In this document: piece after piece, positions 30,373-46,808 of the stretch | How positions within the stretch are numbered: position 1 is the stretch's first letter | How the letters are laid out: each line of letters starts with the position of its first letter | Source: Verrucomicrobiota bacterium | GTDB lineage: Bacteria; Verrucomicrobiota; Verrucomicrobiia; Limisphaerales; UBA11358 | Assembly: GCA_049510295.1 (NCBI GenBank) | Contig: JBEKZC010000012.1 | Coordinates: 5,492-69,491 of the forward strand | Direction: 5' to 3' | Length of the DNA: 64,000 nucleotides | Translations under genes and position numbers: made by a program | Notes under the pieces: model-generated | Told to the model about the DNA's origin: nothing | The model's database searches: none | What the model saw: only the letters and a program-made list of their open reading frames with translations

Positions 30373-31155
30373 CTATGGCGCGATAGGCGCGCTGTACAAT
30401 GGCACGGTGGCGCGCAGGCTCAACAAATACGCCGCGAGTTCCACGGCTTCCGGCTTGGGCACGACTTCATAACCGGCGGGTGACGCGAATTCCTTTGGAA
30501 ATTGGAGCGCGTCCGGCGAAGGCATCGCGCCAGCCTTGCGGACTTCAAACAGGTAACGGAACGGCGGCATGGTCGAACCTTTCACCACGCTCGACGGTGC
30601 GTAAAGATGGACCAACTGCCAGTTTGCATCCGGCGCACGCACGCCGATGTTCGCCAGATCCGGCCCGGCGCGAAGGCTGCCCAACTGCACCGGCTGGCCG
30701 TAAAGATAATCCTCGGCCACGCTTTGGCGCATTCCCCACCCGCGCGCAATGTCCGGCCCGGTGGCCACGATGTGAATTTCAGCTTTTGCTCCAGCGGCGG
30801 TGATTTTGTCCACGGCTTTGTCGGCGTCTTCCTTGGTTAGATTGGTCAATGCCAGGGATGAAATCAGATTCGTCACTGCTTCCGGATTTTTCCCGGCATC
30901 AGTCAGCGTCACGTCACACGCGATGCCGGTCTGCCGGACCTGTTCGGTGTGGCAGGCGGCGCAGCCGTTGGCACGATAAACCGACAAACCCTGGTTCGCC
31001 TCGCCGGGGCGCCCAACCGGATAAACATCGGATGAATTGAGAATGATCGTCTGTTTTGCGCCACCCAACTGCAATTCCGGCGCGAGCACGAAGCCGCACC
31101 AGGAACCGCCCAGGGCGACGAACACCGCGAGAAAAATCCAAAAGCCGTTTTTCAC
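30373..31155 (-). CDS. CcoO-like monohaem cytochrome c (cbb3 subunit II homologue) with an internal insertion
   Basis: It has an N-terminal TM anchor, the haem motif CAACH in the context GLSVYRANGCAACHTEQVR, and the CcoO C-terminal pattern GSLRAGPDLANIGVR...W...HLYAP...STMPPF. A segment of about 60 aa (TGIACDV...GPDIARGWG) interrupts the canonical spacing. An ATGA overlap links it to the upstream CcoN-like gene. Confidence 0.7.
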   Translation of the reverse strand: MKNGFWIFLAVFVALGGSWCGFVLAPELQLGGAKQTIILNSSDVYPVGRPGEANQGLSVYRANGCAACHTEQVRQTGIACDVTLTDAGKNPEAVTNLISSLALTNLTKEDADKAVDKITAAGAKAEIHIVATGPDIARGWGMRQSVAEDYLYGQPVQLGSLRAGPDLANIGVRAPDANWQLVHLYAPSSVVKGSTMPPFRYLFEVRKAGAMPSPDALQFPKEFASPAGYEVVPKPEAVELAAYLLSLRATVPLYSAPIAP

Positions 31156-32690
31156 ACCTTCACCTCCCCGCCTTCGCCTCCGGCTTCGGCGCGGTCGCGC
31201 CGTAGCGAAGCGGAGGCGGACGGCTTCTCCAGCGGCGCGGTCACGACGGCAAACGCCTTTTTAACCAGCGACTTTTCCCAAACGAACGTCATCGCAAAAA
31301 GGTTCAGGGCGAACAGCGAATTGCCCAACAGAATCAACAGCAGGCCGATGGTGCTGGTGCGCAGGAATGGCAACATCGCCTTCGTCGCATCCATGAAGGC
31401 GATGTTGAAATTGTCCAGTTTCATCCCCTGCTCCACCCCGCCGATGGCCAGTGGCAGGACCAGCAGCACGACCCCGGCCGTCGAAATCCAGAATTGGGCG
31501 CGCGCAAGTTTCGGGAACGGGAGTTCAAACCCGACGGCGCGTGGCAACAAATAATAAATCGCACCGAACATCGTCATGGCGAAGAAGCCGTAGAGTTGCA
31601 GTTGGGTCTGCGCCGGGCCGAACCAGGTGAATTCCGTCACCCGGCTGATTCGCGGGCACGCCATCGCGATGAGCATCAGCGACGAGAGACCGAAGGACAT
31701 GAGACCGAACCGGATGAAACAAAACGGCCCGCCCCTCGGTTCGCAGTTGATCGAGCCACAAAGGGTTTGCCACGCGATGGTGGCAACGGCGAGCACGGGC
31801 ACAACAGTCAGCACGGCGGCGAAGGAACTGAGCACCGGCATCCAGGCCGGCACCGGCGCGCCCGGCGGAATGCCGCACCAGGTCCCGAAAAGAATCAGCG
31901 TCCAAAACGCGAACAGGGCGAGGTAATAACTTTGCAGCGGGCATCCGCTGAATTTCGGCAGGAAATAAAACGCCGTGCCGATGCCGGCCAGCGCGAGCCA
32001 GACGAACAACAGATTGCCGGCGAACCACCAGCCGATGATGGCCTGCACCACGCCGCGCACCGGCCAAGCGACCAGGAACAAATTGGCTGTCGAGTAAATC
32101 CACGGAAACCAGAACAGCGCGGCGACCAAAAACCAGTGCGACGGATACAACGCGCGTTCGCGGCGGGCGGCAAAATTCATCATCGCCCACAACGCCAGCA
32201 GCAAATAAGCGAAGAACAAAATGACCGAACCGGCGCGCGGAAATTCAAGCCACGCAAAGCCGGTGCTGTTGCCGGACAAAATGCCAGCCAGACCGACGAG
32301 CACGCCCAGATGCCAGAGTTTTGCCGCGACAACCGGCACCATGGCGCCCCGCAACGGCGCCTGGCCGAGTTGTGCGAACAGCCACAGCGCAACACCCAGT
32401 CCGGCGGGAATGCAGAAGCCGTAAAGCAGCGCGTCGTCGGCCGCCGCTTGAACCCGGCCATAAGTCAGCCACGGGCAATGGGCGGGAAAATCGGGCGCAT
32501 GAAATTTAATCGAGGCCATCAAACCCAGCACGGAACCCAGGACGAGCCACAGCGCCGCGCCGCCAAACAACGCGAGCAACGGCACGCGCAGGGAAGCGTC
32601 AATCGGTGGGGCGAGGCCACTGATCCCGCAATGCGGGACGGGGACGCTCGCCCCACCAATATTGTTATCAGATTTTTCGTTCACGATCAT
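31152..32690 (-). CDS. CcoN-like polytopic membrane protein (cbb3 subunit I homologue) lacking all haem/CuB histidine ligands
   Basis: The 512-aa product has about 12 or more TM helices. It is collinear with CcoN motifs, but GRVQAAADD replaces GRLRPLHTN, WWFAGN replaces WWYGHN, GIPPGAP replaces GPHHLHY, and EFTWFGPAQTQ replaces HYTDWTIGHVH. There is no His at all after residue 185. Confidence 0.7.
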   Translation of the reverse strand: MIVNEKSDNNIGGASVPVPHCGISGLAPPIDASLRVPLLALFGGAALWLVLGSVLGLMASIKFHAPDFPAHCPWLTYGRVQAAADDALLYGFCIPAGLGVALWLFAQLGQAPLRGAMVPVVAAKLWHLGVLVGLAGILSGNSTGFAWLEFPRAGSVILFFAYLLLALWAMMNFAARRERALYPSHWFLVAALFWFPWIYSTANLFLVAWPVRGVVQAIIGWWFAGNLLFVWLALAGIGTAFYFLPKFSGCPLQSYYLALFAFWTLILFGTWCGIPPGAPVPAWMPVLSSFAAVLTVVPVLAVATIAWQTLCGSINCEPRGGPFCFIRFGLMSFGLSSLMLIAMACPRISRVTEFTWFGPAQTQLQLYGFFAMTMFGAIYYLLPRAVGFELPFPKLARAQFWISTAGVVLLVLPLAIGGVEQGMKLDNFNIAFMDATKAMLPFLRTSTIGLLLILLGNSLFALNLFAMTFVWEKSLVKKAFAVVTAPLEKPSASASLRRDRAEAGGEGGEVKV

Positions 32691-33049
32691 TCAAAGGCGC
32701 TGGGTTTCTCCGGGGCTTGAGGTGCCGGGGCGGTCGCCTTTTCAACGCGCGCCGTCAGGTTCGATCGCGCGGCGGCGGGATCCTGCCCTTCGCATTCGGT
32801 GATTTGCATCGCCACCTCAATCGGCAGGCGCACGAGGCCGCGATCCTGGTTAATCCAGCCGGGATGGTTCAGCGCCTGGTTTTCGGCGGCGCGAATTTCG
32901 GCCAGGGCCTTGGCGCGCACGGCGGCGCGGTCGGCGTCAATGGCCGGGACCGACATGGACCATTTCACCTTCACCACGATCGCAGCAAACAAAAAGCACG
33001 CGATGAGGAAGCCGACGCCGGCGGGCCAGACGATGCGTTCGTTGTTCAT
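32687..33049 (-). CDS. small single-TM protein of the ACIII operon (120 aa)
   Basis: The N-terminal TM segment is WPAGVGFLIACFLFAAIVV. ATGA overlaps link it to both actF (upstream) and the CcoN-like gene (downstream). It may be an ActG-like accessory subunit (inference). Confidence 0.55.
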   Translation of the reverse strand: MNNERIVWPAGVGFLIACFLFAAIVVKVKWSMSVPAIDADRAAVRAKALAEIRAAENQALNHPGWINQDRGLVRLPIEVAMQITECEGQDPAAARSNLTARVEKATAPAPQAPEKPSAFE

Positions 33050-34296
33050 TGGCGACCTCCGGTGGTTGATGTCACGCCGGAAATCTCTTCACGCGCGACG
33101 TAACGGATTCCCATGGCTTCGAGCAGGCGCGGGTCCTTTTGCGGGAACGGTGCGTGGCGGTTAAAATTTTTCAGGAAAGCCCAACTGAGAAATCCCCCCA
33201 TGAACGCGAGACAACCGAGTTGCAGCCATATCCATTTGAACGGATAGCCGTTCGGATGTTGCGCCGGCAGGATGTTGAAGGACAAGTCCACAAAGTTCAT
33301 CGCCAGTGCCCACAGACAGACCGGCAGCATGATTTTGAAATCAGTTTTCGCCTTCACGGGCAGCAGCACGAAGAACGGCAGCAGGAAATGGCCGAAGATG
33401 AGGAGCAGGCCCATCCACCACCACGAGCCATGTTCGCGGATGAGATACCAGAAGGTTTCGCCGGGTGTGTTCGCATTCCAGATGACGAAGTATTGCGCGA
33501 ACTCGAGGTAAGCCTGGAAGATGGTGAACGCAAAGAACAGCAGGCCCAGGAAATAAAACTGGTTGTCGTGCAGCACGCGGTCGAGGATGCGCTGGCGTTG
33601 CAGGAGCACGGTGATGACATAGACCGCCGCCAGCGCCGCCCAGGCGCAACTGGCGAAAAAGTACACGCCGTAAATCGCCGAGAACCATTGGTATTGCACG
33701 GCCTGCATCCAGAGCACGCCGGAGAAGGTCAGTGTCAGCGCAAAGGCCACCATCCCCCACCCCGAATGGAAACGCATCCGCTGCGTACCAAGTGCACCGC
33801 TGGTTTCGTCCTGCTTGAGCGACCAGTAACGCAGCCGCGACGACAGCAGCCACCAGAGGCCGAAGAAAATCGCCGACGTGATGTAAAATCCGGGCATCGT
33901 GAACACCGGCCATTTCGCGCTCAACGAGCTGTTGGCATGCGGGTCGGCCATCGTCATCCACGAATAAATGTGTTTCGCGAAAAACGCGACTGGCAGAAAC
34001 AGAATCGCCAGCCAGGGAAACAACAGCGACGCGATATGCTCGCAAACGCGGCGTATGGCCACCGACCAGCCGGCGTCGCTCAAATGATGGACCATCACCA
34101 GGAACAGCGCCCCGAGGGCGAGGCTAAGGAAAAACATGAACGCCAGCAGCCACGAATAACCGAACTCCGCCGGATCTTTTACGGCGCCAATCGCCGACAA
34201 CACCGCGCCGACGACCATCAAGACGGCGGGCGCCTTCCGCCATCCGGACAAGTCCAGCGGCGGCGGCAAAGGTGTTATGTTGTTGGGCAAACTCAT
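33046..34296 (-). CDS. actF: alternative complex III subunit ActF (NrfD-like membrane subunit 2)
   Basis: A polytopic 416-aa membrane protein in the conserved position after actE. Confidence 0.8.
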   Translation of the reverse strand: MSLPNNITPLPPPLDLSGWRKAPAVLMVVGAVLSAIGAVKDPAEFGYSWLLAFMFFLSLALGALFLVMVHHLSDAGWSVAIRRVCEHIASLLFPWLAILFLPVAFFAKHIYSWMTMADPHANSSLSAKWPVFTMPGFYITSAIFFGLWWLLSSRLRYWSLKQDETSGALGTQRMRFHSGWGMVAFALTLTFSGVLWMQAVQYQWFSAIYGVYFFASCAWAALAAVYVITVLLQRQRILDRVLHDNQFYFLGLLFFAFTIFQAYLEFAQYFVIWNANTPGETFWYLIREHGSWWWMGLLLIFGHFLLPFFVLLPVKAKTDFKIMLPVCLWALAMNFVDLSFNILPAQHPNGYPFKWIWLQLGCLAFMGGFLSWAFLKNFNRHAPFPQKDPRLLEAMGIRYVAREEISGVTSTTGGRQ

Positions 34297-34419: not shown

Positions 34420-35076
34420 TCATTTTTTCAAGGCGGCCTGCTGGTCTGGCGGCAAGTCGTCCACCGAACCCAATTGGCTCAATTGCAACGCGCGCAGATA
34501 AGCGATGACCGCCCAGCGGTCGGCCACCGGCACCATCGGCCCATGCGCGCCCATCAAACCCTTGCCGAAAGTAATCGTGTTGAATATTTCGCCGTCGGCC
34601 ATTTCCACGATGCGCTTGTCCTGCAAATTGGCCACCGCCGGCATCACGCCAAGTTTTTTGCTGATGCCGTTGCCGTCGCCGAGCGCGCCATGACAGGGCG
34701 TGCAGTAAATATTGAAGCGCTCGCGTCCATGCTGGAGCAACGGACCGGTGACGGACAGCGGATTGGTCTCCACAAAATTTGTCGTGCCGGTGACGCGACC
34801 GGTGTTGACCGGCGCATCTTCAAAGGGCCAGACCTCGCCGCTGACGGTTTGCAGCAGCTGGCCGCGCGCAATCGTGCCGGGCGGCGGCAATTGCGAACTG
34901 AGTCCATTCGGGAAAAAGTCGTTGGGCTGTTGCGGGCGCAGTTTCAACTGCCGGTCCATGTCCGGGAAAACCTCGATGGGCGGCTGGCGCGACAACCGTC
35001 CCTGCCGCCCGGCGATGCCAACGCCCACGGCCACGCCCGTCAGCAAAATCAAAATGATGTATAAAAGTTGGCGCAT
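34420..35076 (-). CDS. actE: alternative complex III subunit ActE (monohaem cytochrome c)
   Basis: It has a single CTPCHG haem motif with a downstream Met, and an N-terminal hydrophobic anchor. Its start overlaps the actD stop by 1 nt (TGATG). Confidence 0.85.
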   Translation of the reverse strand: MRQLLYIILILLTGVAVGVGIAGRQGRLSRQPPIEVFPDMDRQLKLRPQQPNDFFPNGLSSQLPPPGTIARGQLLQTVSGEVWPFEDAPVNTGRVTGTTNFVETNPLSVTGPLLQHGRERFNIYCTPCHGALGDGNGISKKLGVMPAVANLQDKRIVEMADGEIFNTITFGKGLMGAHGPMVPVADRWAVIAYLRALQLSQLGSVDDLPPDQQAALKK

Positions 35077-35609
35077 CAGGCTTTCACCAGTTCGATGTGC
35101 GTGCCGCCGAGGGACTCCAGCAGCCTGCGGGTTTCGGTTTCGGAAAATTTCAGATCGTTCGCGCCAATCACGAGGAAAAACTTGTCGCGCGACGCCAGCG
35201 CGAAGCGTGCCTTCTGCAAAAGCGGATGATGCAAACGCGGGAGTCCGTTCAGGGCCAGCATCCCGACGAACGCGCCGACGGCGGCGCCCAGCACCATCAT
35301 GATGTAGGACGGCACGAAGGACATCGGCGGGCTGAACATCGGTTTGCCGCCGACGATCAGCGGATAATCGAACGCGTTGCTGAACCAGATCAAACCCATG
35401 GTCGCCACAAATGCGCCGCCGCCAAACAGGAACGCGAACCAGCCGACGAGCGAATTTTTGAAGCCGGCCACCTTGTCGAGGCCATGAATCGGAAACGGCG
35501 TGAACACCTCCCAGCGGCGATAACCCGCCGCGCGGATTTTTTCCGCCGCGTGCAGAATGGCCGCGGGTGAATCGAATTCCGCCATGAGGCCGTAATCTTT
35601 GTCGTTCAT
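35076..35609 (-). CDS. actD: alternative complex III subunit ActD (DUF3341)
   Basis: The N-terminal pattern MAEFDSPAAILHAAEKIRAAGYRRWEVFTPFPIHGL is typical of ActD/DUF3341 and is followed by two TM helices. Confidence 0.85.
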   Translation of the reverse strand: MNDKDYGLMAEFDSPAAILHAAEKIRAAGYRRWEVFTPFPIHGLDKVAGFKNSLVGWFAFLFGGGAFVATMGLIWFSNAFDYPLIVGGKPMFSPPMSFVPSYIMMVLGAAVGAFVGMLALNGLPRLHHPLLQKARFALASRDKFFLVIGANDLKFSETETRRLLESLGGTHIELVKA

Positions 35610-35751: not shown

Positions 35752-37176
35752 TCAAGCTAGACCTCCTTTCGCGCCGCCCAAGGGATGGTGCGGGTCGGCC
35801 TGCGGCAGGGCGCCCTTGACCTCGGCGATGGCGACCAGCGACAGGAATTTTATGAACAGCAGATACATCGTGAAAAAGGCGCCGAGTGTGCCGAGATAGG
35901 TGCCGATGTCCACCCACGTCGGGAAATACACGCCCCAGTTCGCGGGCAGGAAATCCTGGTAGAGCGAACCGACGATGATGACGAAGCGTTCGAACCACAT
36001 CCCGATGTTGATGAGCACACCGAGGACGAAGACGAGTTTCAGGTTATGCCGGACGGTTTTGAACCAGAGCAACTGGGCGAGGCCCACATTGACCACGAGC
36101 ATGATCCAGCCGCCATACCAGTAGGTGTGACCGAACAACCGGTGGCCGAAAACCCAGCGTTCGTACGGATCGCCGCTGTACCAGGCGATGAAATATTCCA
36201 TCAGGTAAATATAGGCAATGACCAGGCTGCTGAGCAAAGTCAGCTTGCAGATGCGGTCCATGTGCCGGGGCGTGATAATTTCCTCGAGCTGGCACCACTT
36301 GCGCAGCGGGATGAGCAGCACCAGCACCATGCCGAAGCCGCAGTACACGGCGCCCACGACGAAATACAGCGGGAAAATCGTCGCATGCCAGCCCGCCAGT
36401 TGCGACGTGCAGAAATCCATACCGACGATGGAACTCACCGTGAACACCAGCAACGTGCACAAGCCGGACAAAACGACGTAGGCCTTTTCGTAATGGTGCC
36501 AGTGCCGTGCCGAGCCGACCCAGCCCATCGCCAGAAAACCGTAAATAAATTTCCGCACCCGCGTGGTCGCGCGGTCGCGCAGCACGGCGAGGTCGGGAAT
36601 CAATCCCAGGTACCAGAAGAGTATGGAAACCACCAGGTAGGTGTTGACGGCGAACACGTCCCACATCAACGGTGAACGAAACTGCGGCCAGAGGCCGTTC
36701 GAGTTTGGGATCGGGAACATGAACCAGGCAAACCACACGCGCCCGACGTGGATGGCCGGATACAGCCCCGCCATCATGACCGAGAACACCGTCATCGCTT
36801 CCGTTGCGCGGCCGATGGTGGTGCGCCAATGCTGCCGCGTCAGGAACAGCATCGCCGAAATCAACGTGCCGGCGTGCGCGACGCCGACCCACCACACGAA
36901 ATTGATGATGTCCCAGCCCCAGGCCACCGGTTGATTGTTGCCCCAGACGCCGACACCGGTGGAAACCTGGTAAATCAACATGACGGGTAATAATACCGTC
37001 GCTCCCAACACCGCCGGGCCGAACAGAACCCACCACCAAAGCGGTGTTTTCCCTTCGGCGAAGGCCGAGAGCTTGTCGGTCAGCCAGCCGGGGCCGCGGT
37101 TGTTCTCCACGACCGGCGCGCGCTGCAATTCCGCCGGCGGCGTGAAGGTTTTCAAGTTGGTCGCGGATTCAGCCAT
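35752..37176 (-). CDS. actC: alternative complex III subunit ActC (NrfD/PsrC-type quinol-interacting membrane subunit)
   Basis: A polytopic 474-aa NrfD-family protein in the conserved position after actB. Confidence 0.9.
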   Translation of the reverse strand: MAESATNLKTFTPPAELQRAPVVENNRGPGWLTDKLSAFAEGKTPLWWWVLFGPAVLGATVLLPVMLIYQVSTGVGVWGNNQPVAWGWDIINFVWWVGVAHAGTLISAMLFLTRQHWRTTIGRATEAMTVFSVMMAGLYPAIHVGRVWFAWFMFPIPNSNGLWPQFRSPLMWDVFAVNTYLVVSILFWYLGLIPDLAVLRDRATTRVRKFIYGFLAMGWVGSARHWHHYEKAYVVLSGLCTLLVFTVSSIVGMDFCTSQLAGWHATIFPLYFVVGAVYCGFGMVLVLLIPLRKWCQLEEIITPRHMDRICKLTLLSSLVIAYIYLMEYFIAWYSGDPYERWVFGHRLFGHTYWYGGWIMLVVNVGLAQLLWFKTVRHNLKLVFVLGVLINIGMWFERFVIIVGSLYQDFLPANWGVYFPTWVDIGTYLGTLGAFFTMYLLFIKFLSLVAIAEVKGALPQADPHHPLGGAKGGLA

Positions 37177-37345: not shown

Positions 37346-40300
37346 TCAGCCCGCTCCTTTCTTTTCGGCCTGGAGTTCGCCGCCGCGGTTTTTGTATTCC
37401 TCAAAGCTGTAAGGCCATTTGCGGTAATCAGGCATGTTTGGGTTTTGATTGCGGATGCGCGCCAGATATGTCGTGCGCGGTTTCGTCAGCAAATCACCGA
37501 GCACCGAATAATTCCGTGTCTGTGCCTTGAGCCGCGAAACGTGGCTTTTCGGATCGCTGATGTCACCGAACGTAATCGCCTGTGCCGGGCACGCCTGCTG
37601 GCACGCCGTCTTTGGAATCGTGCCGGCGGCTTCCGTGAGCCGCACGTTGTCCGACGCGCCGGCCTTGACCTTCTGTGCAATCTTCGCCTGCTCGATGCGT
37701 TGCGTGCAGTAGGTGCATTTTTCCATCACGCCGCGCATGCGCACCGTCACGTCGGGATTCTTGACCATTTTGATCAAGTCCCATTCGTCCTCCTCGCGCA
37801 TGCCGCTGTCCGGATTTTTCCACCAGCTCAACAAATCCCATTTGCTGTCCGTCTTGTGCGTGAGTGGCGTGGGATAAAACGGTCCCTTGAGATCGGCCAG
37901 CGGACGTTTGTTGTAATCAAGATAATTGAACCGGCGGACCTTGTACGGACAGTTGTTCGAGCAATACCGCGTGCCGATGCAGCGGTTGTAAGCCATCACA
38001 TTCAAACCTTCCTGGTCGTGGACGGTGGCGTTGACCGGGCAGACGTTTTCGCACGGGGCGGCCTCGCACTGCTGGCAAAGCATCGGCTGGTTCACCGCCT
38101 GCACGTCGTCAATCCATTCGGCAAATTGCTGCTCGTCATCCTTCTGGAAGGCGTCCGACGGTTTTTTGAATATCGGATTGGCGGTGTAGTAGCGGTCAAT
38201 CCGCAGCCAGTGCATTTCTCGGCCGCGCAGCACCTGGTCCTTGCCAACGATGGGAATGTTGTTTTCGCTCTGGCAGGCAATCACGCACGTGCCGCAGCCG
38301 ACGCACGCGCTCAAATCCACCGTCATGCCCCACTGATGCAATGCGGTCTTCTTCGCCTCGTCCAGCGGGTTGGGATACAACGGCGCCACCACCGGTGGCT
38401 CGGTGCCGCGCATCTCAGTCGCAAAATCCGGGTCCTTGAAGAATTCCAGAAGGTTTGCCTCGCGCACCGCCGGCCGGCCTTCCATGGACCAGTGATTTTG
38501 TGTCGTGGCCAGCGGATATGTTTCACCGGTCTTGCGCACCGTCGCGCCGGTCTCGATGTATTGGCCGGTGAAAATCTTGCAGGCGTTGAAACCGACGCCG
38601 GTGCCGACGCGCCCTGCCCTTTCGCGTCCGTAACCGAGCGCAAGCCCGAGCGAATAATCCGCCATGCCCGGCTGCGTCCAGATGGGGCCCTTGACGCTGC
38701 GGCCGTTCAGAGTGATTTCGATGACGTCGCCGTTCTGCACACCAAGTTCGCTCGCCGTCTTGCGGCTGACAAGCACCGCGTTGTCCCAGGTCAGCTTGGT
38801 GACGGGGTCGGGCAGCTCCTGCAACCAGCCGTTGTTGGCATAACGTCCGTCGTCCATTTTCGCGTCGCGATGGAAAACGACTTCGAGGTTGTTCGCGGAA
38901 GGCGTGGGAACATTTTTAATGGAAGGCAAAGCTACGGCTCGGCTGTCTTCAAGGATCGGATTAAAAGTTTTGTTGGAACCTTCAAGATAACCGTCGAACA
39001 AAAACTTTTTCCATGCTGCTTCCGGGTTAATTTCATCCCAGACTCCAATAATTGTCTGACGAACAATTTCGTAAGGACTGGTCTGCGATTCACCCGCAAT
39101 GCGCGCAAGGAATTCCAGTTCCGTCAAGCCGCCGAACAGGGGTTGAATGAGCGGCTGGATCGGCACGAGCGTGCCGTCGCTGGTCGTGGCATCACCCCAC
39201 GATTCGAGATAATGCGCCAGTGGGAAATTCCAGTCTGATTTTTCTGCTGTTTCGTCTTCGTAATGGCCAAGCCGAACGACGGTTTCCGGTTTCTGCTTCG
39301 GCGACCAGTTCAAATTGTAAACCGGATTGCCGCCAAGAATGACCAGTGTGTCGGTTGCGCTTCTGTCGAAATTCTTCAAATCTGCGCCGGCAGTTTCCAT
39401 TGTCGGAAGCAAAGTGACTGTGTTGCCAATCGCACCGAGCGCCGAATTGAAGGCCCAAGCGAGCAAATGAACTTCCAACGGCTGGCGCTGACCAGCAACG
39501 ACCAAAACCTCGCCACGATGGGCAAGCAAGTCTTTCGCGCATCTCGCAATCCATCTCGCGAGCAAGGGCACCGGCTCCGAGAGTTGAGCGAAAATTTCAT
39601 CCGCAACTTTCGAAACCATGCTTCCCGGCACGCGCAAACGGTGGTCCGCATTTGCACCGGTAAGCGTGAACAGCGACTCCACGGCATAAAGCCGGCTCAT
39701 CCCCTCGCCCGGCCTCCGGCCCTCGGCAAATTGACGGATGTAATTATGCGGGTCCTCCTCGCCGCCGAGAAAATCGCAATCCAGCGACAGGATGACCTTC
39801 GCCTTGTCGAAATGGTAAACCGGACGCACCGGCTGGCCGAACGCCTGCGTTGCCGCGCGTTGATGGATGCCTGAATCAATCGCGTCGTAGGTGAACCACT
39901 GCGACTTCGGGAATTTGTCGGCGATGATTTTTTGCAGACGCGCACGCGATGGCGACGTGCTGCTTTCGGCGAGGAAGGCCAGGCCTTCGCCCTGGTTCGC
40001 CGCAAATTTCTTCGACAGCTCGTCAAGGAAACCCAGCGCTTCGTCGCGTGAAACCGTTTTGCCTTCCTTCGTGAACCGTTTGGCGCGGTCGGGATCGTAA
40101 AGATCCAGGATGGAAGCCTGCGCGTAGCGGTCGGTGCCGCCGTTGCTGCCGGGGAATCTGGCATTGCCCTCCAGTTTGATGGGCCGGCCTTCACAGGACT
40201 TGGCGACGAGCGGGACCGCACCGGTGCGCGTCGGCATGGCCGTCGCATAATATTCCGGTTCGCCGTAAACGTAATTTTCCGGCTGCTGGCCGAACGGCTC

Positions 40301-40546
40301 CAGTTTTTCCACCGGCCGGCGGCAGCCCGCGCCCATCACACCCAGGCCCGCGAGCGCGAACGACGCAGACATGATTTTGACGAAATGCCGGCGGGAAACG
40401 CCGTCCTCGAATTCGCTCGCACCCTGCGGAAACTCGCGATGCAGCCAGTCCTTGAACTCCGGCGTGTCGGCCAGTTCATCCAGGCTGCGCCAGTAACGGC
40501 GGCCAGTCAGGGCAGGCTGGGCGGGAGTTGGAGGATTTGGTTTCAT
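37346..40546 (-). CDS. actB: alternative complex III subunit ActB (molybdopterin-oxidoreductase-like domain fused to a 4Fe-4S domain)
   Basis: The twin-arginine signal is [20 protein letters not shown] large MopB-like N-terminal half is followed by a C-terminal ferredoxin-like half with several Cys clusters ([41 protein letters not shown]). The length is 1066 aa. Confidence 0.92.
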
Positions 40547-40748: not shown

Positions 40749-41417
40749 TCATCGGTGGCAGGCCGAGCAGCTTTGCAGCGATTCGATTTTCCAGTCGTGG
40801 ACGAAGGTGGTACCGTTGGTCCTCTGCATCCGCGCCGCCACGTCCGCATTCGTGCTCCATTGCCAGCCCAAATCCGTGACCTTGTCCACCGGCCGGACAA
40901 ATGCCGCTGGCTGGCGATGGCAATCGAGGCAAAAACTCATGCTGAACGATTTGGCATGACGGACCTCGTCCATTTGATCAACGCGTCCGTGGCACTCGAC
41001 ACAACTGATGCCGCGCGCGACGTGAACCGAGTGGTTGAAATAAACATAATCGGGTACGATGTGGATTTGCACCCACGGGATGGGGACATTGTTGGTGACG
41101 CTGGCGCGCACGAGGGCGAGGCGCGGGTCGTCCTTGAGCACTTGATTGTGGCAATTCATGCACGTGGACGCGGACGGGATGCTGGAGAACCACGATTTGT
41201 CCACCGTGTTGTGGCAGTAGCGGCAATCAACGCCCAGTTGCCCCGTGTGGATCGCGTGCGAAAATGGCACCGGCTGGACCGGCTGGTAACCGGCCCGCGT
41301 GTATTTGGGCGTGCAATAATAAGTGACACCCGCTGTCACCACACCGCCGACCAGCGCCAGCACGACGCCAATCTGCAGCGGCAACCAGTTTGTCCACCTC
41401 GGAAAAATCGCTGGCAT
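40749..41417 (-). CDS. actA: alternative complex III subunit ActA (pentahaem cytochrome c)
   Basis: It has an N-terminal TM anchor and five CxxCH motifs (CRYCH, CMNCH, CVECH, CLDCH, CSACH). Confidence 0.9.
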   Translation of the reverse strand: MPAIFPRWTNWLPLQIGVVLALVGGVVTAGVTYYCTPKYTRAGYQPVQPVPFSHAIHTGQLGVDCRYCHNTVDKSWFSSIPSASTCMNCHNQVLKDDPRLALVRASVTNNVPIPWVQIHIVPDYVYFNHSVHVARGISCVECHGRVDQMDEVRHAKSFSMSFCLDCHRQPAAFVRPVDKVTDLGWQWSTNADVAARMQRTNGTTFVHDWKIESLQSCSACHR

Positions 41418-43282: not shown

Positions 43283-46200
43283 TTAGCCCAACACGTTGTC
43301 CCGCCACCGGCGCACGCTCATCACGTCGAACCGCTCGCCCTCAAAGACGATTTGCTTCACAGGTTTCTTGCCGTTGTTGCTTTCGCGATTCAGCCAGTCG
43401 CGAATTTCCATCCAGCGGACTTCGCCCTCGGAATTCCGGATCACCAGCAGCACCGGGAACGCCTGTGCCATCCAGTAGCGGGCGTGGCGCTCGTCCTTGA
43501 TCGTGAAGATCTCCGCGCCGTCGCCCTTGCGCTCGCGCAGGTAGGAATCGCCCGACTTGAGTTGCAGGTAGAGCTTTCGTCCGGTAGCCTCGCCGGCATC
43601 GCTCTTGAACTCGATCTCCATATCAATACCTTGGTCGCTCACGATTAACTCCCGGCTGATCTGCCCGGCCAGCGCGACCGTGGAAATCACCTCGCCCACC
43701 AGCGCACGCTCCTTGCTCTGGCTGTCGAGCACGATGGCGGATTGTTCCTCCAGTTCGCGGACCCGTTGTTTCATTTCTGGGCTGGCAAACAGTTCCTCCA
43801 TTTGATCCCAGAGCGGAATGCGCTTCTCGCAACTCACACAGAGGATGTCCTTCTTGCCTTCCTCCAACTTCTTCATTGCCACTTCCCGGTTCCCGACCGG
43901 CGTGCCGCAGTGCGGGCAGACATAGTGCCGCAGCCGCACGACATCCTGCCCCTTTTGCAGCAGGTGCTCGTGGACATACCGGCTGAAGATGATCTTTTCC
44001 TCCACCGGGATGGCCGGATCGAAATACACCTCCATCTCGCCCGCGCCCTCGGCCCGGCGCGTCAGCTTCACACCGAGTAGTCTGCCGGTCAGAGTCTTGA
44101 AGTCGGCGGCGTAGCGCCAGAGTTGGTCCTGCTGGAATGGCTTCGTGTGATGCAGCCGCACCACCAGCGTGGCGTAAATGTCGTCGAGGAACCCATTGAA
44201 TCGGTAGCTCACCAGCACGGCCGGGTGACCCACCAACTCGGGACGCTCGCGGCGGTAGAAGCTGGGGAATATCAAAAGCGGCCCCTTGTCCGTGTGCTCG
44301 CGCAGGCAAAGGCCGCGCTCGACCAGCGTCTGGTGCATGGCCAGCAGCACAAACCGCTCCTCCTCGGCCCCCAGGCGCTTCATCGAGGATTGATACGTGA
44401 GGTCGCCCTTCAGCACCCGTTCCTCCGGAAGGCACCCACGTTCGAGTTTGTCTTCGCGCATGGTTTGGATCACCGCTTGTGCGTAGGCGTTGATGCGCTC
44501 CGGCTGGAGCAGCACCCAACTGCCGAACGCCAGCTCCCACACCGCTCCGGGACCGGCCAGCAGGCCAACCACCGCCTTCAACTCCTCGTCCTTGAACTGC
44601 CCATCCTTTCCGGCCAAACGCAGGCGCAAGGCATCGCGCAGTTCGTTCAATCGCATCAGCACCCGGTCCTCATCCCTGAGCCGGACGATCTCTTCCTTGA
44701 GCCGCTTGAAGAGAAGCGGCGAGGAGCGCCACGGAATATTCTCCCACTGGATGCCGCGAAGAATGGCTTGTTTGAGTTCTTCGCAACGTTCCCCGGTCTT
44801 TGCGCTTGTTTCCAGAAAGCAGGTAAAACCACGTTCCTTCGCGAACGTCTCGACTTGGCTCCGGCTGACGCGCAGGCCGCCGGCATCCACGCGCCCGGCG
44901 ACCAACAGCTTGGCGAACTCCTTGCGCGAGGCGCGGGTGAGATCGCGATCCCACTGGCCCAGTGTCTCGAAGAGGTCTTCCTTCTGGCCGTCGAAGACCA
45001 GCACCGCCAACGCGGTTTCGTCCATGTAAAGCTGGTGGATCAACCGCTGGTCCGCCTGGCCGCCGAAATCCCAAAGCCAGATTTCCCGCTCGACGCCTTC
45101 GCCGGAAGACACGGGCAGCTTCCACTGCGTCGCCCACGCGCCGACCGTCGAGCCTTCGCTCGGTTTCCATTCACCAGTTGCCAACCGATACGAAAGTCCC
45201 GTTTTGCCTGCGCTGGTTTCGCCGACAAGAAGGACTTTGGCATTCGTGTATTGGACCTGATCAGGCACAAGTTTCCTGGTCATCCTAGTTGAAGAAGTCT
45301 GCAATTTCGGCGCGACGGTTTTCGGTACTCGTGCCTCGGTGACGAATTCCGACAAATCCCATACCCGGATGCCGCCTTTCTTGTCGCCTGAGAAAGCACG
45401 GCGTCCATCGACGCTCCACGCCACGGTCGTGACGTGGGCAGTGTGACCTTCGAGCACGCGCAGGCAGCGCCCCGTCTCCACGTCCCATAGCCGAAGCGTA
45501 TGATCGTCGGAGCCGGAGATAACGCGGTGTGCATCCGCGCTTAAGGCTATACACCAAATGCGGCCACTGTGACCTTCGAGGACGCGTAAGCAGCGCCCCG
45601 TCTCCATGTCCCACAATCGAAGGGTTTTGTCGGTGGCTCCGGACATCGCGCGGCGTTCATCGGCACTCAACGCTACGCCCCAAATGGGATTTTTGTGGCC
45701 TTCGAGCGTCAAGAGACATTGGCCCGTCTCCACGTCAAAGAGCTGAACAACATTCGCGGGATCGCCTGAACCAGCGATGACGCGGCGTTGGCCGCCACCC
45801 CACGCTAGGCTAAGAGCCCAGCTATTACTGTCGAGGACGCGCAAGCAACGCCCCGTCTCAAGGTCCCATAGCCGTAGCGTCTTATCGTGCGAGCTGGAAA
45901 GGGCCCTGCGTTGATCGGGGCTCCAAGCCACGCGCAGGACGTCAGTGGTGTGACCTTTGAGAACGCGTAGGCAATGGCCAGTCCCCACGTCCCACAGCCG
46001 GACGGTTTTGTCATTGGCACCAGAGAGGGCGCGGCGTTGATCGGCACTCCATGCCACGCCGTTGACATCACCGCTGTGGCCTCTGAGCACACGCAGGCAG
46101 CGCCCCGTTTCCACATCCCACAGCCGCATGGTGTTGTCATCGGCTCCGGTGAGAGCGCGCTTTCCATCCGGACTGAACGCGTAGGCATTGACGCTCGCGC

Positions 46201-46684
46201 CCTTGCAGTCGAGTTGGATTGCCTTTTCCACAACGTGTTCACCAGCGGCCTCTGCGCCCGTCGCCTTCGGCTCCGCTGGCGGTCGGCAAGCTTCGAGGAG
46301 CTTCGCATACTCCTGCTCGCGGTTCGCCGGCAGCCAGTTAATGTAAAGGAACTGGGTCAGGGAGCCTTTGATGGGGGCGTCGTCGAGCCGCAGGGGAACA
46401 AATCGACGATCTTTGTTCAGCGGATCGCGAAACCGGAACGTATGGCTCTCCAACTGCGCCCAGTCCGAGCCGAATGCATTCGCCGACATGCAGAGCACCA
46501 GCACGCGCGAGTACTCCAGCCCTTCCTCAATCTTCGCCGGGATGCTGTCGCCGGGCTTGATCTCCCATTCATCAAACCACACCTTCAACCCATCCTTCCG
46601 CAACCGCTCCGCGAGCGGGCGTATCACCGCCTTGTCCTTCGAACTGTGGCTTAGGAAGACATCAAATTTGAAATCATTTGCCAT
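43283..46684 (-). CDS. TIR - 7x WD40 - Roc GTPase - COR - zinc ribbon - DUF4365-like (PD-(D/E)xK-type) multidomain protein (1133 aa)
   Basis: I chose the start at 46684 (MANDFKFDVFLSHSS). The TIR domain has FDVFLSHSSKDK...SDWAQLE with the conserved Glu. Seven WD40 blades carry (T/V)(L/V)RLWD(V/L/M)ETGRCLRVLEGH. The Roc G-motifs are GETSAGKTG, DFGGQ, AGRVD and ETSAK. A COR-like region follows, then CPHC...CVSC, and a C-terminal ERALVGEVIS...DQGIDMEIEF...KLYLQLKSG segment typical of DUF4365. Confidence 0.85.
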   Translation of the reverse strand: MANDFKFDVFLSHSSKDKAVIRPLAERLRKDGLKVWFDEWEIKPGDSIPAKIEEGLEYSRVLVLCMSANAFGSDWAQLESHTFRFRDPLNKDRRFVPLRLDDAPIKGSLTQFLYINWLPANREQEYAKLLEACRPPAEPKATGAEAAGEHVVEKAIQLDCKGASVNAYAFSPDGKRALTGADDNTMRLWDVETGRCLRVLRGHSGDVNGVAWSADQRRALSGANDKTVRLWDVGTGHCLRVLKGHTTDVLRVAWSPDQRRALSSSHDKTLRLWDLETGRCLRVLDSNSWALSLAWGGGQRRVIAGSGDPANVVQLFDVETGQCLLTLEGHKNPIWGVALSADERRAMSGATDKTLRLWDMETGRCLRVLEGHSGRIWCIALSADAHRVISGSDDHTLRLWDVETGRCLRVLEGHTAHVTTVAWSVDGRRAFSGDKKGGIRVWDLSEFVTEARVPKTVAPKLQTSSTRMTRKLVPDQVQYTNAKVLLVGETSAGKTGLSYRLATGEWKPSEGSTVGAWATQWKLPVSSGEGVEREIWLWDFGGQADQRLIHQLYMDETALAVLVFDGQKEDLFETLGQWDRDLTRASRKEFAKLLVAGRVDAGGLRVSRSQVETFAKERGFTCFLETSAKTGERCEELKQAILRGIQWENIPWRSSPLLFKRLKEEIVRLRDEDRVLMRLNELRDALRLRLAGKDGQFKDEELKAVVGLLAGPGAVWELAFGSWVLLQPERINAYAQAVIQTMREDKLERGCLPEERVLKGDLTYQSSMKRLGAEEERFVLLAMHQTLVERGLCLREHTDKGPLLIFPSFYRRERPELVGHPAVLVSYRFNGFLDDIYATLVVRLHHTKPFQQDQLWRYAADFKTLTGRLLGVKLTRRAEGAGEMEVYFDPAIPVEEKIIFSRYVHEHLLQKGQDVVRLRHYVCPHCGTPVGNREVAMKKLEEGKKDILCVSCEKRIPLWDQMEELFASPEMKQRVRELEEQSAIVLDSQSKERALVGEVISTVALAGQISRELIVSDQGIDMEIEFKSDAGEATGRKLYLQLKSGDSYLRERKGDGAEIFTIKDERHARYWMAQAFPVLLVIRNSEGEVRWMEIRDWLNRESNNGKKPVKQIVFEGERFDVMSVRRWRDNVLG

Positions 46685-46764
46685 ACCCACTTCTGCTGAA
46701 CATGGCGAGACTGACGCATTTGCCGGGCAAAAGCAAAAATAAAGTTGGGGGCCGTAAGCCGCCC

Positions 46765-46808
46765 TCACCCGGCCTTCAGCCACCCTCTCCCGTCGGACGG
46801 GAGAGGGG
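46765..46808. repeat. repeat family H hairpin upstream of the TIR gene
   Basis: The sequence gccctcacccggccttcagccaccctctcccgtcggacgggagagggg includes the palindrome ccctctccc gtcgga cgggagaggg. Confidence 0.55.

What the first reader, a model, noticed from the sequence alone, without database searches (positions are those of the whole stretch)
30373..33049. Alternative complex III operon ends in a cbb3 CcoN homologue with none of the six metal-ligand histidines, plus a haem-competent CcoO
Seen in the sequence: actF, a 120-aa single-TM gene, a 512-aa polytopic gene and a 260-aa cytochrome c gene are chained by three consecutive ATGA start/stop overlaps (at 33046-33049, 32687-32690 and 31152-31155). 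They are therefore co-translated with ACIII.

The 512-aa protein is collinear with CcoN as I remember the Pseudomonas stutzeri sequence, but every ligand position is substituted:
- GRLRPLHTN becomes GRVQAAADD (haem b ligand).
- WWYGHN becomes WWFAGN (CuB ligand).
- GPHHLHY becomes GIPPGAP (two CuB ligands).
- HYTDWTIGHVH becomes EFTWFGPAQTQ (haem b3 and haem b ligands).

The protein has only five His (residues 20, 64, 71, 127, 185) and none in its last 327 residues; this can be checked directly from the translation. The partner CcoO-like protein keeps its CAACH haem site and the CcoO C-terminal motif.

Established knowledge: ACIII operons are often followed by genes for a functional haem-copper oxidase, usually caa3 and sometimes cbb3, and ACIII-oxidase supercomplexes exist.

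Inference: this subunit I cannot bind haem b/b3 or CuB in the canonical way, so it cannot reduce O2. It may be a retained scaffold that docks the CcoO-like cytochrome onto ACIII as an electron exit. It might also keep a proton or ion pathway. I do not know of a described histidine-less CcoN.
Basis: partly seen in the sequence, partly recalled or inferred. Interest (0 to 1): 0.8.

Follow-up and report, generated by a model that had tools for sequence, protein, structure and literature searches.

The report
Cofactor-less cbb3 oxidase remnant in ACIII operon
The last genes of this respiratory (alternative complex III) operon encode a well-conserved copy of the catalytic subunit of a cbb3 oxygen reductase that has lost every haem and copper ligand, so it cannot be an oxidase although databases call it one; it most likely survives as a membrane scaffold for a still haem-binding cytochrome c that carries electrons out of the complex.

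Summary
On the minus strand actABCDEF is followed by a 120-aa single-TM gene, a 512-aa CcoN homologue and a 260-aa CcoO homologue, joined by 4-nt start/stop overlaps. Two are ATGA; the third is GTGA.

The 512-aa protein has a confident CcoN fold (AF2 pLDDT 89.5; Foldseek TM 0.80/0.88 to 3MK7). It has no His at any of the six ligand columns, and the cross-linked Tyr is also gone.

It is not a decaying gene:
- dN/dS is 0.18-0.31, with one pair at 0.49, about that of its act neighbours.
- The nine-gene order is kept in all 80 related genome loci that were fetched.
- All 119 close relatives lack the ligands.
- Of the 150 best 50%-identity cluster representatives, only 2 keep the full ligand set.

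Degenerate copies occur in at least three verrucomicrobial orders, always behind ACIII. Intact ACIII-linked cbb3 operons (Telmatocola, Opitutaceae TAV1) also carry a CcoS-like maturation gene that every degenerate operon examined lacks. In two distant loci a genuine oxidase (aa3 or cbb3) follows the dead module directly.

Best reading: a retired oxidase kept as a scaffold and cytochrome c relay of ACIII. The function is inferred, not shown. I found no published description, and databases label the protein "cbb3-type oxidase".

The parts
40749..41417 (-). ActA, pentahaem cytochrome c subunit of alternative complex III (222 aa)
   Evidence: Pfam Cytochrome_C7/c3 hits. Five CxxCH motifs are visible in the translation. 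It is the first gene of the conserved nine-gene order.
37346..40546 (-). ActB, Fe-S / molybdopterin-like subunit of ACIII (1066 aa)
   Evidence: Pfam Fer4_7 and Fer4_11 hits. Syntenic in 59 loci that reach this far.
35752..37176 (-). ActC, NrfD-type quinol-interacting membrane subunit (474 aa)
   Evidence: Pfam NrfD E=1.5e-17.
35076..35609 (-). ActD (177 aa)
   Evidence: Pfam ActD E=1.3e-57.
34420..35076 (-). ActE, monohaem cytochrome c (218 aa)
   Evidence: Pfam Cytochrome_CBB3 E=4.4e-10. One CTPCH motif is visible in the translation.
33046..34296 (-). ActF, second NrfD-like membrane subunit (416 aa). Its stop overlaps the next start (ATGA).
   Evidence: Position and conservation in all 80 loci. 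No Pfam hit. Overlap shown.
32687..33049 (-). Small single-TM subunit (120 aa), specific to ACIII-cbb3(-like) operons. It has an N-terminal TM helix and a conserved '(G)W(I/V)(N/D)QD.G.VR(L/I)PIE.AM' motif.
   Evidence: It is homologous to the 92-181-aa gene at the same position in both intact and degenerate operons: TAV1 111 aa E=5e-11, L083 E=1e-13, Telmatocola 153 aa E=2e-5. No Pfam or NCBIfam family.
31152..32690 (-). Cofactor-ligand-free CcoN homologue ('pseudo-CcoN', 512 aa, 12 TM helices).
   Evidence: Pfam COX1 1.5e-37. AF2 pLDDT 89.5, pTM 0.89. Foldseek 3mk7 CcoN TM 0.80/0.88, rmsd 2.3 A. No His at the ligand columns. dN/dS 0.18-0.31 in nine comparisons and 0.49 in one (L004).
32439..32441 (-). 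Codon of A84, the column of the haem b ligand His60 of P. stutzeri CcoN
   Evidence: Alignments. In the family this column is A in 65/128, with F, Q, S and G also seen.
32016..32018 (-). Codon of G225, the column of the CuB ligand His207
31884..31886 (-). Codon of G269, the column of the His-cross-linked Tyr251
31863..31868 (-). Codons of P275-P276, the columns of the CuB ligands His257/His258
   Evidence: phmmer alignment. MAFFT places a gap here. Under either alignment there is no His.
31602..31610 (-). Codons of Q361-T362-Q363, the columns of His345 (haem b3) and His347 (haem b)
30373..31155 (-). CcoO-like membrane-anchored monohaem cytochrome c (260 aa). GTG start overlapping the pseudo-CcoN stop (GTGA).
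   Evidence: Pfam FixO 66.6 bits against cut-off 29.6. PDB CcoO chains at ~1e-10. CxxCH in 74/74 and MP[PSA][FYW] in 71/74 orthologues.
30949..30963 (-). CAACH haem c attachment motif of the CcoO-like protein (residues 65-69)
30568..30570 (-). Met196 in GSTMPPF, aligned with the CcoO 'MP.Y' motif that I take to hold the distal haem ligand
   Evidence: Alignment to 6xkw CcoO. Motif conservation. The ligand assignment is from general knowledge of CcoO.
30757..30924 (-). Clade-specific ~55-aa insertion in the CcoO-like protein (residues ~78-133), between the haem motif and the FixO core
   Evidence: Present in subdivision-3 orthologues and absent from Telmatocola, Opitutales and other distant operons. 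Weak, sub-threshold Pfam Ribosomal_L12 C-terminal-domain hit, E=0.0047.

Best explanation
The 512-aa protein descends from the catalytic subunit (CcoN) of a cbb3 oxidase that was once encoded, active, directly behind ACIII. That arrangement still exists in Telmatocola and Opitutaceae TAV1. In this lineage, and in much of the Verrucomicrobiota, the subunit has lost haem b, haem b3, CuB and the catalytic tyrosine, so it is a pseudo-enzyme and not an oxygen reductase.

It is retained under purifying selection, translationally coupled to actF and to a small single-TM subunit. Its 12-helix body most likely still serves as the membrane platform that assembles and positions its old partner, the CcoO-like cytochrome. 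That partner keeps its haem c.

Together the three proteins would form an accessory 'exit module' of ACIII. In this scheme electrons from menaquinol pass through the ActA and ActE haems to the CcoO-like haem, and in other clades also to a monohaem CcoP-like protein. From there they go to a genuine terminal oxidase or other periplasmic acceptor encoded elsewhere.

Shown: homology, fold, loss of all ligands, selection, synteny, and retention of the haem c site. Inferred: physical association with ACIII, the direction of electron flow, and the identity of the acceptor.
For: (1) Homology and fold. Pfam COX1 1.5e-37. Collinear alignment to solved CcoN chains. AF2 model pLDDT 89.5, with 3mk7 CcoN as top Foldseek hit at TM 0.80/0.88.

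(2) Ligand loss. All six His ligands and Tyr251 are replaced. There is zero His at these columns in 119/119 close relatives. Only 2 of the 150 best 50%-identity cluster representatives keep the full set.

(3) Not a relic.
- dN/dS is 0.18-0.31 in nine of ten comparisons (0.49 against L004), against ActF 0.15-0.21 and the CcoO-like protein 0.16-0.26.
- The order ActABCDEF-small-N-O is kept in all 80 fetched loci; the scan reported 222 confirmed genome matches in all.

(4) Always ACIII-linked, including members only 30-35% identical to the window protein. These come from Opitutae/Puniceicoccaceae, Chthoniobacterales and unnamed marine contigs.

(5) The ancestral state is visible. Intact ACIII-cbb3 operons in Telmatocola (L085) and Opitutaceae TAV1 (L089) have the same small subunit plus a FixS/CcoS-like gene. 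That gene is absent from every degenerate operon examined and from the window. An Opitutales MAG shows an intermediate state, with the haem ligands kept but Tyr and two CuB His lost.

(6) The partner cytochrome is intact. CxxCH is present in 74/74 and the Met motif in 71/74.

(7) Real oxidases lie next door in other clades.
- L091 (Chthoniobacterales): ActA-F, small subunit, pseudo-N, O, monohaem P, a 125-aa ORF (x125), CoxB (CuA), intact A-type CoxA, CtaA, CtaB, CoxC. All are co-directional, and the genes from pseudo-N through CoxB overlap one another.
- L083: an intact fused CcoNO cluster with ccoP, ccoG and ccoI follows the module.

(8) Periplasmic loops, the face that carries CcoO in cbb3, are more conserved than cytoplasmic loops: 2.19 against 1.51 bits, and 9/60 against 1/38 highly conserved positions.
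Against: - There is no direct evidence that the three proteins are expressed, bind ACIII or carry electrons.
- The CcoO-like protein has its own TM anchor, so anchoring alone does not explain why a 12-TM partner is conserved so strongly.
- In the window's own clade no oxidase is adjacent and the monohaem P subunit is missing, so the acceptor is unknown.
- ActE is reported to be dispensable for electron transfer to aa3 in Flavobacterium (title of PMC8552683). An extra haem relay is therefore not obviously needed.
- The ligand columns mostly hold small residues (A, G, N, S) rather than bulky ones. This leaves open that the cavities are used for something else.
Confidence: 0.6

Rival explanations
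1. Neofunctionalised membrane protein. The cofactor-less CcoN shell has a new job of its own inside or beside ACIII, for example binding quinone or lipid in the vacated cavities, acting as an ion or proton conduit, or acting as an assembly or stability factor. The CcoO-like haem would then be incidental or serve another partner.
For: - Strong conservation of a 12-TM protein beyond what a simple anchor needs.
- The ligand columns are filled mainly by small residues (A, G, N, S, Q) rather than bulky hydrophobic ones.
- Several charged or polar positions stay conserved family-wide: R79, E149, R176, Q216, Q421.
Against: - The conserved residues are almost all shared with intact CcoN and look structural (W, G, P and the same R/E positions).
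- No new family-specific polar motif appears inside the membrane.
- The residues recalled as the cbb3 proton path are hydrophobic or small here.
- The haem site of the partner is strictly kept, which argues that electron transfer is still the point of the module.
Confidence: 0.25
2. It is still a redox enzyme (O2 or NO reductase, or similar) that binds haem and/or metal through non-canonical ligands.
For: - The fold is fully preserved.
- In the window's own clade a few potential ligands are conserved: H64 is invariant, and H127, C93, C324 and C345 are invariant or nearly so.
Against: - None of these is conserved across the wider family. H127 is N in 88% of members and C93 is A in the consensus.
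- The six ligand columns hold non-ligand residues that vary freely.
- The CcoS-like maturation gene and the Cu-ATPase found next to intact operons are absent.
- The arginines recalled as pairing with haem propionates (R57, R437) are Q81 and S446 here.
Confidence: 0.05
3. Non-functional relic: a dead oxidase gene drifting towards loss and carried along by the operon.
For: All catalytic residues are lost. A graded series of decay exists among relatives.
Against: - dN/dS is 0.18-0.31 in nine of ten comparisons, like the neighbouring act genes.
- The reading frame is intact and the protein is 53-91% identical across 80 species-level genomes.
- Start/stop overlaps recur: HSP boundaries of adjacent genes coincide in many loci.
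- The family reaches more than 2000 90%-identity clusters.
Confidence: 0.03

Closest known systems
CcoN, catalytic subunit of cbb3-type (C-family) haem-copper oxidase, e.g. Pseudomonas stutzeri PDB 3MK7/5DJQ
   Same: 12-TM COX1 fold, collinear over ~430 residues (21-22% identity, TM 0.80/0.88, rmsd 2.3 A). It shares the structural W/G/P/R/E core positions and is encoded immediately upstream of a CcoO homologue.
   Different: All six His ligands and the cross-linked Tyr are absent. It scores far below the TIGR00780 equivalog cut-off (118.7 against 583). No ccoP, ccoQ or ccoGHIS genes are nearby, and it is embedded in the act operon.
Intact ACIII-linked cbb3 operons of the PVC group: Telmatocola sphagniphila (WP_213498146.1, locus L085) and Opitutaceae bacterium TAV1 (locus L089). 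This is the 'C-type oxidase with ACIII' arrangement attributed to Refojo et al. 2010 in PMC8498564.
   Same: Same gene order: ActA-F, homologous small single-TM subunit, CcoN, CcoO. These are the closest intact relatives by sequence (34-40% identity, against 22% for Pseudomonas).
   Different: They keep all ligands (HHYHHHH) and carry a FixS/CcoS-like gene directly upstream of ccoN and a monohaem CcoP-like gene. Telmatocola also has a Cu-ATPase. The window operon has none of these.
ACIII-aa3 supercomplex of Flavobacterium johnsoniae (Sun et al. 2018, cited in PMC8498564)
   Same: ACIII is hard-wired to a haem-copper oxidase-type membrane partner through c-type haems, and the act genes are clustered with the partner's genes. 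The Chthoniobacterales locus L091 places an intact aa3 operon right behind the module.
   Different: There the partner is a working oxidase. Here the HCO-like subunit next to ACIII is cofactor-less, and any real oxidase is a further, separate component. No structure exists for this arrangement.
Catalytically retired enzymes kept as structural subunits of respiratory complexes, e.g. the core 1/2 proteins of mitochondrial bc1, which are homologues of the matrix processing peptidase (general knowledge)
   Same: An enzyme fold is retained under selection after loss of its catalytic residues, as part of a larger electron-transfer complex.
   Different: Different fold and different complex. The analogy concerns evolutionary logic only and was not tested here.

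Membership tests
cbb3-type cytochrome c oxidase subunit I (CcoN; C-family haem-copper oxidase) | Homologous 12-TM COX1 fold | tested here: met
   Pfam COX1 E=1.5e-37. AF2 model with 12 TM helices, pLDDT 89.5. Foldseek top hits are cbb3 CcoN chains, TM 0.80/0.88.
cbb3-type cytochrome c oxidase subunit I (CcoN; C-family haem-copper oxidase) | Six invariant His: two for low-spin haem b, one for haem b3, three for CuB | tested here: not met
   The columns hold A84, G225, P275/P276 (or a gap), Q361 and Q363. 0 of 119 close relatives has a His at any of them.
cbb3-type cytochrome c oxidase subunit I (CcoN; C-family haem-copper oxidase) | Active-site Tyr cross-linked to a CuB His (Y251 in P. stutzeri) | tested here: not met
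   G269 in the window. G or A in 107 of 128 family representatives.
cbb3-type cytochrome c oxidase subunit I (CcoN; C-family haem-copper oxidase) | Score above the curated equivalog threshold (TIGR00780) | tested here: not met
   118.7 bits against a cut-off of 583.15.
cbb3-type cytochrome c oxidase subunit I (CcoN; C-family haem-copper oxidase) | Maturation and partner genes (ccoS/fixS, Cu-ATPase ccoI, ccoP) in the vicinity | tested here: not met
   No FixS-like or CcoP-like match in the 64-kb window, whereas intact PVC operons have them adjacent. The rest of the genome could not be searched.
cbb3-type cytochrome c oxidase subunit I (CcoN; C-family haem-copper oxidase) | O2 (or NO) reductase activity | not testable with these tools
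   Needs biochemistry. Predicted absent from the ligand loss.
CcoO / FixO monohaem subunit of cbb3 oxidase (for the 260-aa protein) | N-terminal TM anchor, CxxCH haem c site, distal Met motif, FixO core | tested here: met
   Pfam FixO 66.6 bits against cut-off 29.6. CAACH at 65-69 and GSTMPPF at 193-199. Both motifs are conserved in orthologues. It scores below the TIGR00781 equivalog cut-off (56 against 200) and carries a ~55-aa insertion.
Alternative complex III (ActABCDEF) - accessory subunit | Encoded within the act operon, co-directional and translationally coupled | tested here: met
   4-nt overlaps actF/small, small/N and N/O. The same order is found in 80/80 loci and in all nine other ACIII-linked loci.
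Alternative complex III (ActABCDEF) - accessory subunit | Physical presence in the purified complex | not testable with these tools
   No proteomic or structural data were found for this clade. As far as I know, the solved ACIII structures are from other phyla and contain no CcoN-like subunit (general knowledge).
Pseudo-enzyme (catalytically dead homologue under selection) | Loss of catalytic or cofactor residues together with purifying selection and wide conservation | tested here: met
   Ligand loss. dN/dS 0.18-0.31 in nine comparisons and 0.49 in one. More than 2000 90%-identity clusters. The genome scan reported 222 confirmed matches.

The most novel reading that the evidence does not exclude
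Across much of the Verrucomicrobiota a complete cbb3 oxidase has been converted, possibly more than once, into a cofactor-free structural core plus cytochrome c relay. This module would be an obligatory, previously unseen part of alternative complex III. It would form a new ACIII architecture that plugs the complex into interchangeable terminal oxidases: aa3 in Chthoniobacterales, cbb3 in one marine lineage, and an unknown acceptor in subdivision 3. A further possibility is that the emptied haem and copper cavities have been re-used, for example for quinone or lipid binding. If this holds, the many 'cbb3 / high-affinity oxidase' calls for these bacteria would be wrong.
Probability: 0.4. Interest if true: 0.85.

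Novelty: new variant of a known kind. Interest (0 to 1): 0.72.

Why it matters
1. Annotation and ecology. These proteins are labelled 'cbb3-type cytochrome c oxidase subunit I' by NCBI and JGI. Genome papers on Verrucomicrobiota read ACIII-adjacent 'cbb3' genes as a high-affinity oxidase and as evidence for microaerobic life. For the subdivision-3, Chthoniobacterales and some Opitutae lineages that inference fails for this gene.

2. A blind spot. The standard census of haem-copper oxidases discarded sequences lacking the six histidines (PMC3084760). A family of this size could therefore go unnoticed.

3. ACIII biology. The data point to three extra, conserved subunits and a new way of wiring ACIII to terminal oxidases. 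The prediction is clear and testable: a 12-TM HCO-fold subunit without haem b or Cu in the purified complex.

4. Evolution. The family offers a graded natural series, from intact, through CuB-less with haem ligands kept, to fully ligand-free. That series shows how a core bioenergetic enzyme is retired into a scaffold.

Tried and rejected
- Metagenome scan with the diverse alignment A2 failed because no stretch was conserved enough.
The single-sequence model is useless (pLDDT 38.9), so the L7/L12-like reading of its insertion rests only on a sub-threshold Pfam hit.
- No terminator or promoter of note was found downstream of the last gene.
- I looked for a second CcoN-like gene or a real oxidase in the window and in the 10-kb flanks of 90 loci. 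Only L083/L084 have one, and that scan could not detect A-type oxidases such as the one in L091. The window has none.
- Eight literature searches and several full-text look-ups found no description of ligand-free CcoN homologues. The Limisphaera paper's supplement is not held.
- Single versus multiple loss is unresolved. An NJ tree with Fitch parsimony gives one loss. Several degenerate lineages, however, are closer in identity to intact CcoN than to each other, so long-branch attraction is likely.
- Rejected readings: pseudogene (selection); sequencing or frameshift artefact (same state in 119 relatives); clade-specific His64/His127 as replacement ligands (not conserved family-wide).

Full report
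**What is in the window.** On the minus strand a nine-gene cluster runs from 41417 to 30373.
- ActA: pentahaem cytochrome c.
- ActB: Fe-S subunit.
- ActC: NrfD-type.
- ActD.
- ActE: monohaem cytochrome c.
- ActF.
- A 120-aa single-TM protein.
- A 512-aa polytopic protein.
- A 260-aa cytochrome c.

The last four genes are joined by 4-nt start/stop overlaps. The overlaps at 33046-33049 and 32687-32690 read ATGA. The one at 31152-31155 reads GTGA because the last gene starts with GTG. The His census (residues 20, 64, 71, 127, 185; none in the last 327 residues) and all quoted motif strings are exact.

**Homology and ligand loss.** The 512-aa protein is a genuine CcoN homologue.
- Pfam COX1 gives E=1.5e-37.
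- phmmer finds solved cbb3 CcoN chains at 1e-22 to 7e-24, collinear over residues 46-471.
- An AlphaFold2 model built on 79 family sequences has pLDDT 89.5 and pTM 0.89 with twelve TM helices.
- Its best structural matches are cbb3 CcoN chains: 3MK7 at TM 0.80/0.88 and rmsd 2.3 A. NOR and A/B-type oxidases come next.

It nevertheless scores only 118.7 bits against the 583-bit equivalog cut-off of TIGR00780.

In residue-by-residue alignments every metal ligand of P. stutzeri CcoN is replaced:
- H60 -> A84
- H207 -> G225
- the cross-linked Y251 -> G269
- H257/H258 -> P275/P276
- H345/H347 -> Q361/Q363

Residues that I recall as forming the cbb3 proton path (T215, Y223, S240, Y317) or pairing with haem propionates (R57, R437) are A, F, A, F, Q and S here. 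The residues are; the functional assignment of those positions is from memory.

**It is a conserved family, not an accident.**
- The protein database holds more than 2000 90%-identity clusters related to it. The best 120 are 65-100% identical and come from Verrucomicrobiota/Limisphaerales MAGs. Where they carry a name it is 'cbb3-type cytochrome c oxidase subunit I'.
- All 119 full-length members of that set have zero His at the six ligand columns.
- A search of 1.84 billion 50%-identity representatives gave 363 representatives at E<=1e-30. Of the best 150 (down to 30% identity) only two keep the full HHYHHHH signature.
- The genome scan reported 222 confirmed matches. In all 80 fetched loci the order ActA-B-C-D-E-F / small / N / O is preserved wherever the contig allows.
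- Pairwise dN/dS for the CcoN-like gene is 0.18-0.31, with one outlier at 0.49. This compares with 0.15-0.21 for actF, 0.08-0.12 for actC and 0.16-0.26 for the CcoO-like gene.

The gene is therefore under purifying selection of the same order as its act neighbours.

**No replacement ligands.** Across 128 degenerate representatives the ligand columns hold A, G, N, S, Q, F, L and R in varying mixtures. The positions conserved at 80% or more are nearly all W/G/P and a few R/E/Q that are shared with intact CcoN, which marks them as fold determinants. His64 and His127 are conserved only in the window's own clade; His127 is Asn in 88% of the wider family.

**The evolutionary context explains it.** The closest intact CcoN proteins are PVC-type, at 34-40% identity to the window protein against 22% for Pseudomonas.
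- In Telmatocola sphagniphila (Planctomycetes) the intact ccoN lies directly behind ActA-F, together with ccoO, a monohaem TM-anchored CcoP-like gene and a Cu-ATPase.
- In Opitutaceae bacterium TAV1 the arrangement is the same, without the Cu-ATPase. The literature knows this as 'ACIII with a C-type oxidase' (PMC8498564).
- Both intact operons contain two small genes between actF and ccoN.
- One of these is the homologue of the window's 120-aa protein (E=5e-11 to TAV1).
- The other is a FixS/CcoS-like protein. The TAV1 and Telmatocola copies are 43% identical to each other (E=1e-13).
- That second gene is missing from every degenerate operon examined and from the window.
- An Opitutales MAG (L086) shows an intermediate state. 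The haem ligands H60, H345, H347 and also H207 are kept, but Y251 is A and H257/H258 are Q/Y.
- 116 of its 119 listed closest relatives are fully intact.
- Fully degenerate, ACIII-linked copies occur in Opitutae/Puniceicoccaceae (L087), in Chthoniobacterales (L091), and in unnamed contigs (L081 with a TARA Oceans homologue, L083, L090, L092).
- A subdivision-3 MAG carries a stand-alone, intact ccoNOP-ATPase cluster. Real cbb3 oxidases therefore exist in the same order, outside the act operon.

Whether the metals were lost once or several times is unresolved. An NJ tree gives one loss, but the identity patterns suggest several.

**The partner and the small subunit.** The 260-aa protein has an N-terminal TM helix, CAACH at 65-69 and the GSTMPPF Met motif. 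It passes the Pfam FixO threshold. Among 74 orthologues CxxCH is present in 74 and the MP motif in 71.

In the window's clade the protein carries a ~55-aa insertion just after the haem motif. The insertion gives a weak hit to the ribosomal L7/L12 C-terminal domain (E=0.0047, below threshold). The monohaem P gene of other clades is absent from the window.

**What it most likely does.** The catalytic subunit is dead, but its haem c partner and the operon-specific small subunit are kept. All three stay welded to actF by overlapping codons.

Two distant loci place genuine oxidases immediately downstream.
- In Chthoniobacterales L091 the order is ActA-F, small subunit, pseudo-N, O, P, a 125-aa ORF (x125), CoxB (CuA site, no haem c), an intact A-type CoxA (WFFGHPEVY, WGHHMF, AHIHY), CtaA, CtaB and CoxC. 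All are co-directional. The genes from pseudo-N through CoxB overlap one another.
- In L083 an intact fused CcoNO with ccoP, ccoG and ccoI follows the module.

Periplasmic loops of the pseudo-CcoN, the face that carries CcoO in cbb3 oxidase, are more conserved than cytoplasmic loops.

The best-supported reading is therefore a retired oxidase that survives as the membrane platform of a cytochrome c relay. The relay would take electrons from the ACIII haems to a separate terminal oxidase or other acceptor.
- Shown: homology, fold, ligand loss, selection, synteny, and haem c retention.
- Inferred: physical association with ACIII, the electron path, and the acceptor. In the window's own clade the acceptor is unknown, since no oxidase lies within the 64 kb.

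**Rivals.**
- A new function of the emptied shell, such as quinone or lipid binding, an ion path, or an assembly role, cannot be excluded. It is favoured by the small residues at the ligand columns. Against it, no new conserved polar motif appears.
- Non-canonical metal binding is unlikely.
- A drifting relic is contradicted by the selection data.

**Novelty.** Eight full-text searches and targeted reading found no description of ligand-free CcoN homologues. Verrucomicrobial genome papers treat ACIII-adjacent 'cbb3' genes as working high-affinity oxidases. The reference HCO census explicitly discarded sequences without the six histidines. NCBIfam has no model that claims these proteins.

I rate this a new variant of a known kind: a pseudo-enzyme derivative of the known ACIII-cbb3 arrangement. 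It has practical consequences for annotation and gives a clear structural prediction.

Noticed in passing
window 30757-30924 (-), residues ~78-133 of the CcoO-like protein: A clade-specific insertion follows the haem motif directly. Its secondary structure looks beta-alpha-alpha-beta and it gives a sub-threshold Pfam hit to the ribosomal L7/L12 C-terminal domain (E=0.0047). It is conserved in subdivision-3 orthologues, longer in some, and absent from all other clades.
   Followed up: partly
L091:1345-18715 (Chthoniobacterales metagenome contig): A single co-directional superoperon: ActA-F, 181-aa small subunit, ligand-free CcoN, FixO-like protein, monohaem P, a 125-aa ORF (x125), CoxB (CuA), intact A-type CoxA, CtaA, CtaB, CoxC. 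The dead cbb3 module sits between ACIII and a real aa3 oxidase.
   Followed up: partly
L083:10001-21096: A ligand-free CcoN/FixO/P module behind ACIII is followed within 350 bp of the end of the P gene by an intact fused CcoNO (794 aa), then ccoP, ccoG, a DsbD_2-type gene and a Cu-ATPase. Dead and live cbb3 lie side by side on one contig.
   Followed up: partly
L086:5791-7251 (Opitutales MAG, protein P0156): An intermediate decay state. The haem b and b3 ligands and one CuB His are kept, but the catalytic Tyr is Ala and two CuB His are Gln/Tyr. Four of its 119 listed relatives show similar partial losses, and 116 are intact.
   Followed up: partly
L085:9729-9989 and L089:9692-9937: A FixS/CcoS-like small gene lies directly upstream of ccoN only in the intact ACIII-cbb3 operons. 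It is absent from every degenerate operon inspected and from the window.
   Followed up: yes
protein P0562 (Chthoniobacterales, 90% cluster of L091 CoxA): NCBI names an A-type cytochrome oxidase subunit I 'cbb3-type cytochrome c oxidase subunit I'. In that case at least, the name does not match the oxidase type.
   Followed up: no
window 43283-46783 (-): A 1166-aa protein combining an N-terminal TIR domain, a WD40 propeller, a Ras-like GTPase domain and a C-terminal DUF4365. This architecture resembles anti-phage or signalling NTPase systems.
   Followed up: no
window 31152-32690 compared with L001 and L002: Synonymous divergence of the CcoN-like gene (dS 0.15-0.16) is lower than that of most neighbouring genes in the same genome pairs (0.15-0.62; only ActD is comparable). 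No explanation was tested; recombination or nucleotide-level constraint are possibilities.
   Followed up: no
L018, L020, L023, L031, L039, L044, L050, L053, L054, L057, L058, L060, L072, L079 (record titles): Contigs carrying this verrucomicrobial operon sit in genome records titled Bifidobacteriaceae, Acidiferrales, Acidoferrum, Sulfopaludibacter, Aquilonibacter, Sulfotelmatobacter or Methylomirabilota. These are probably mis-binned or mislabelled.
   Followed up: no
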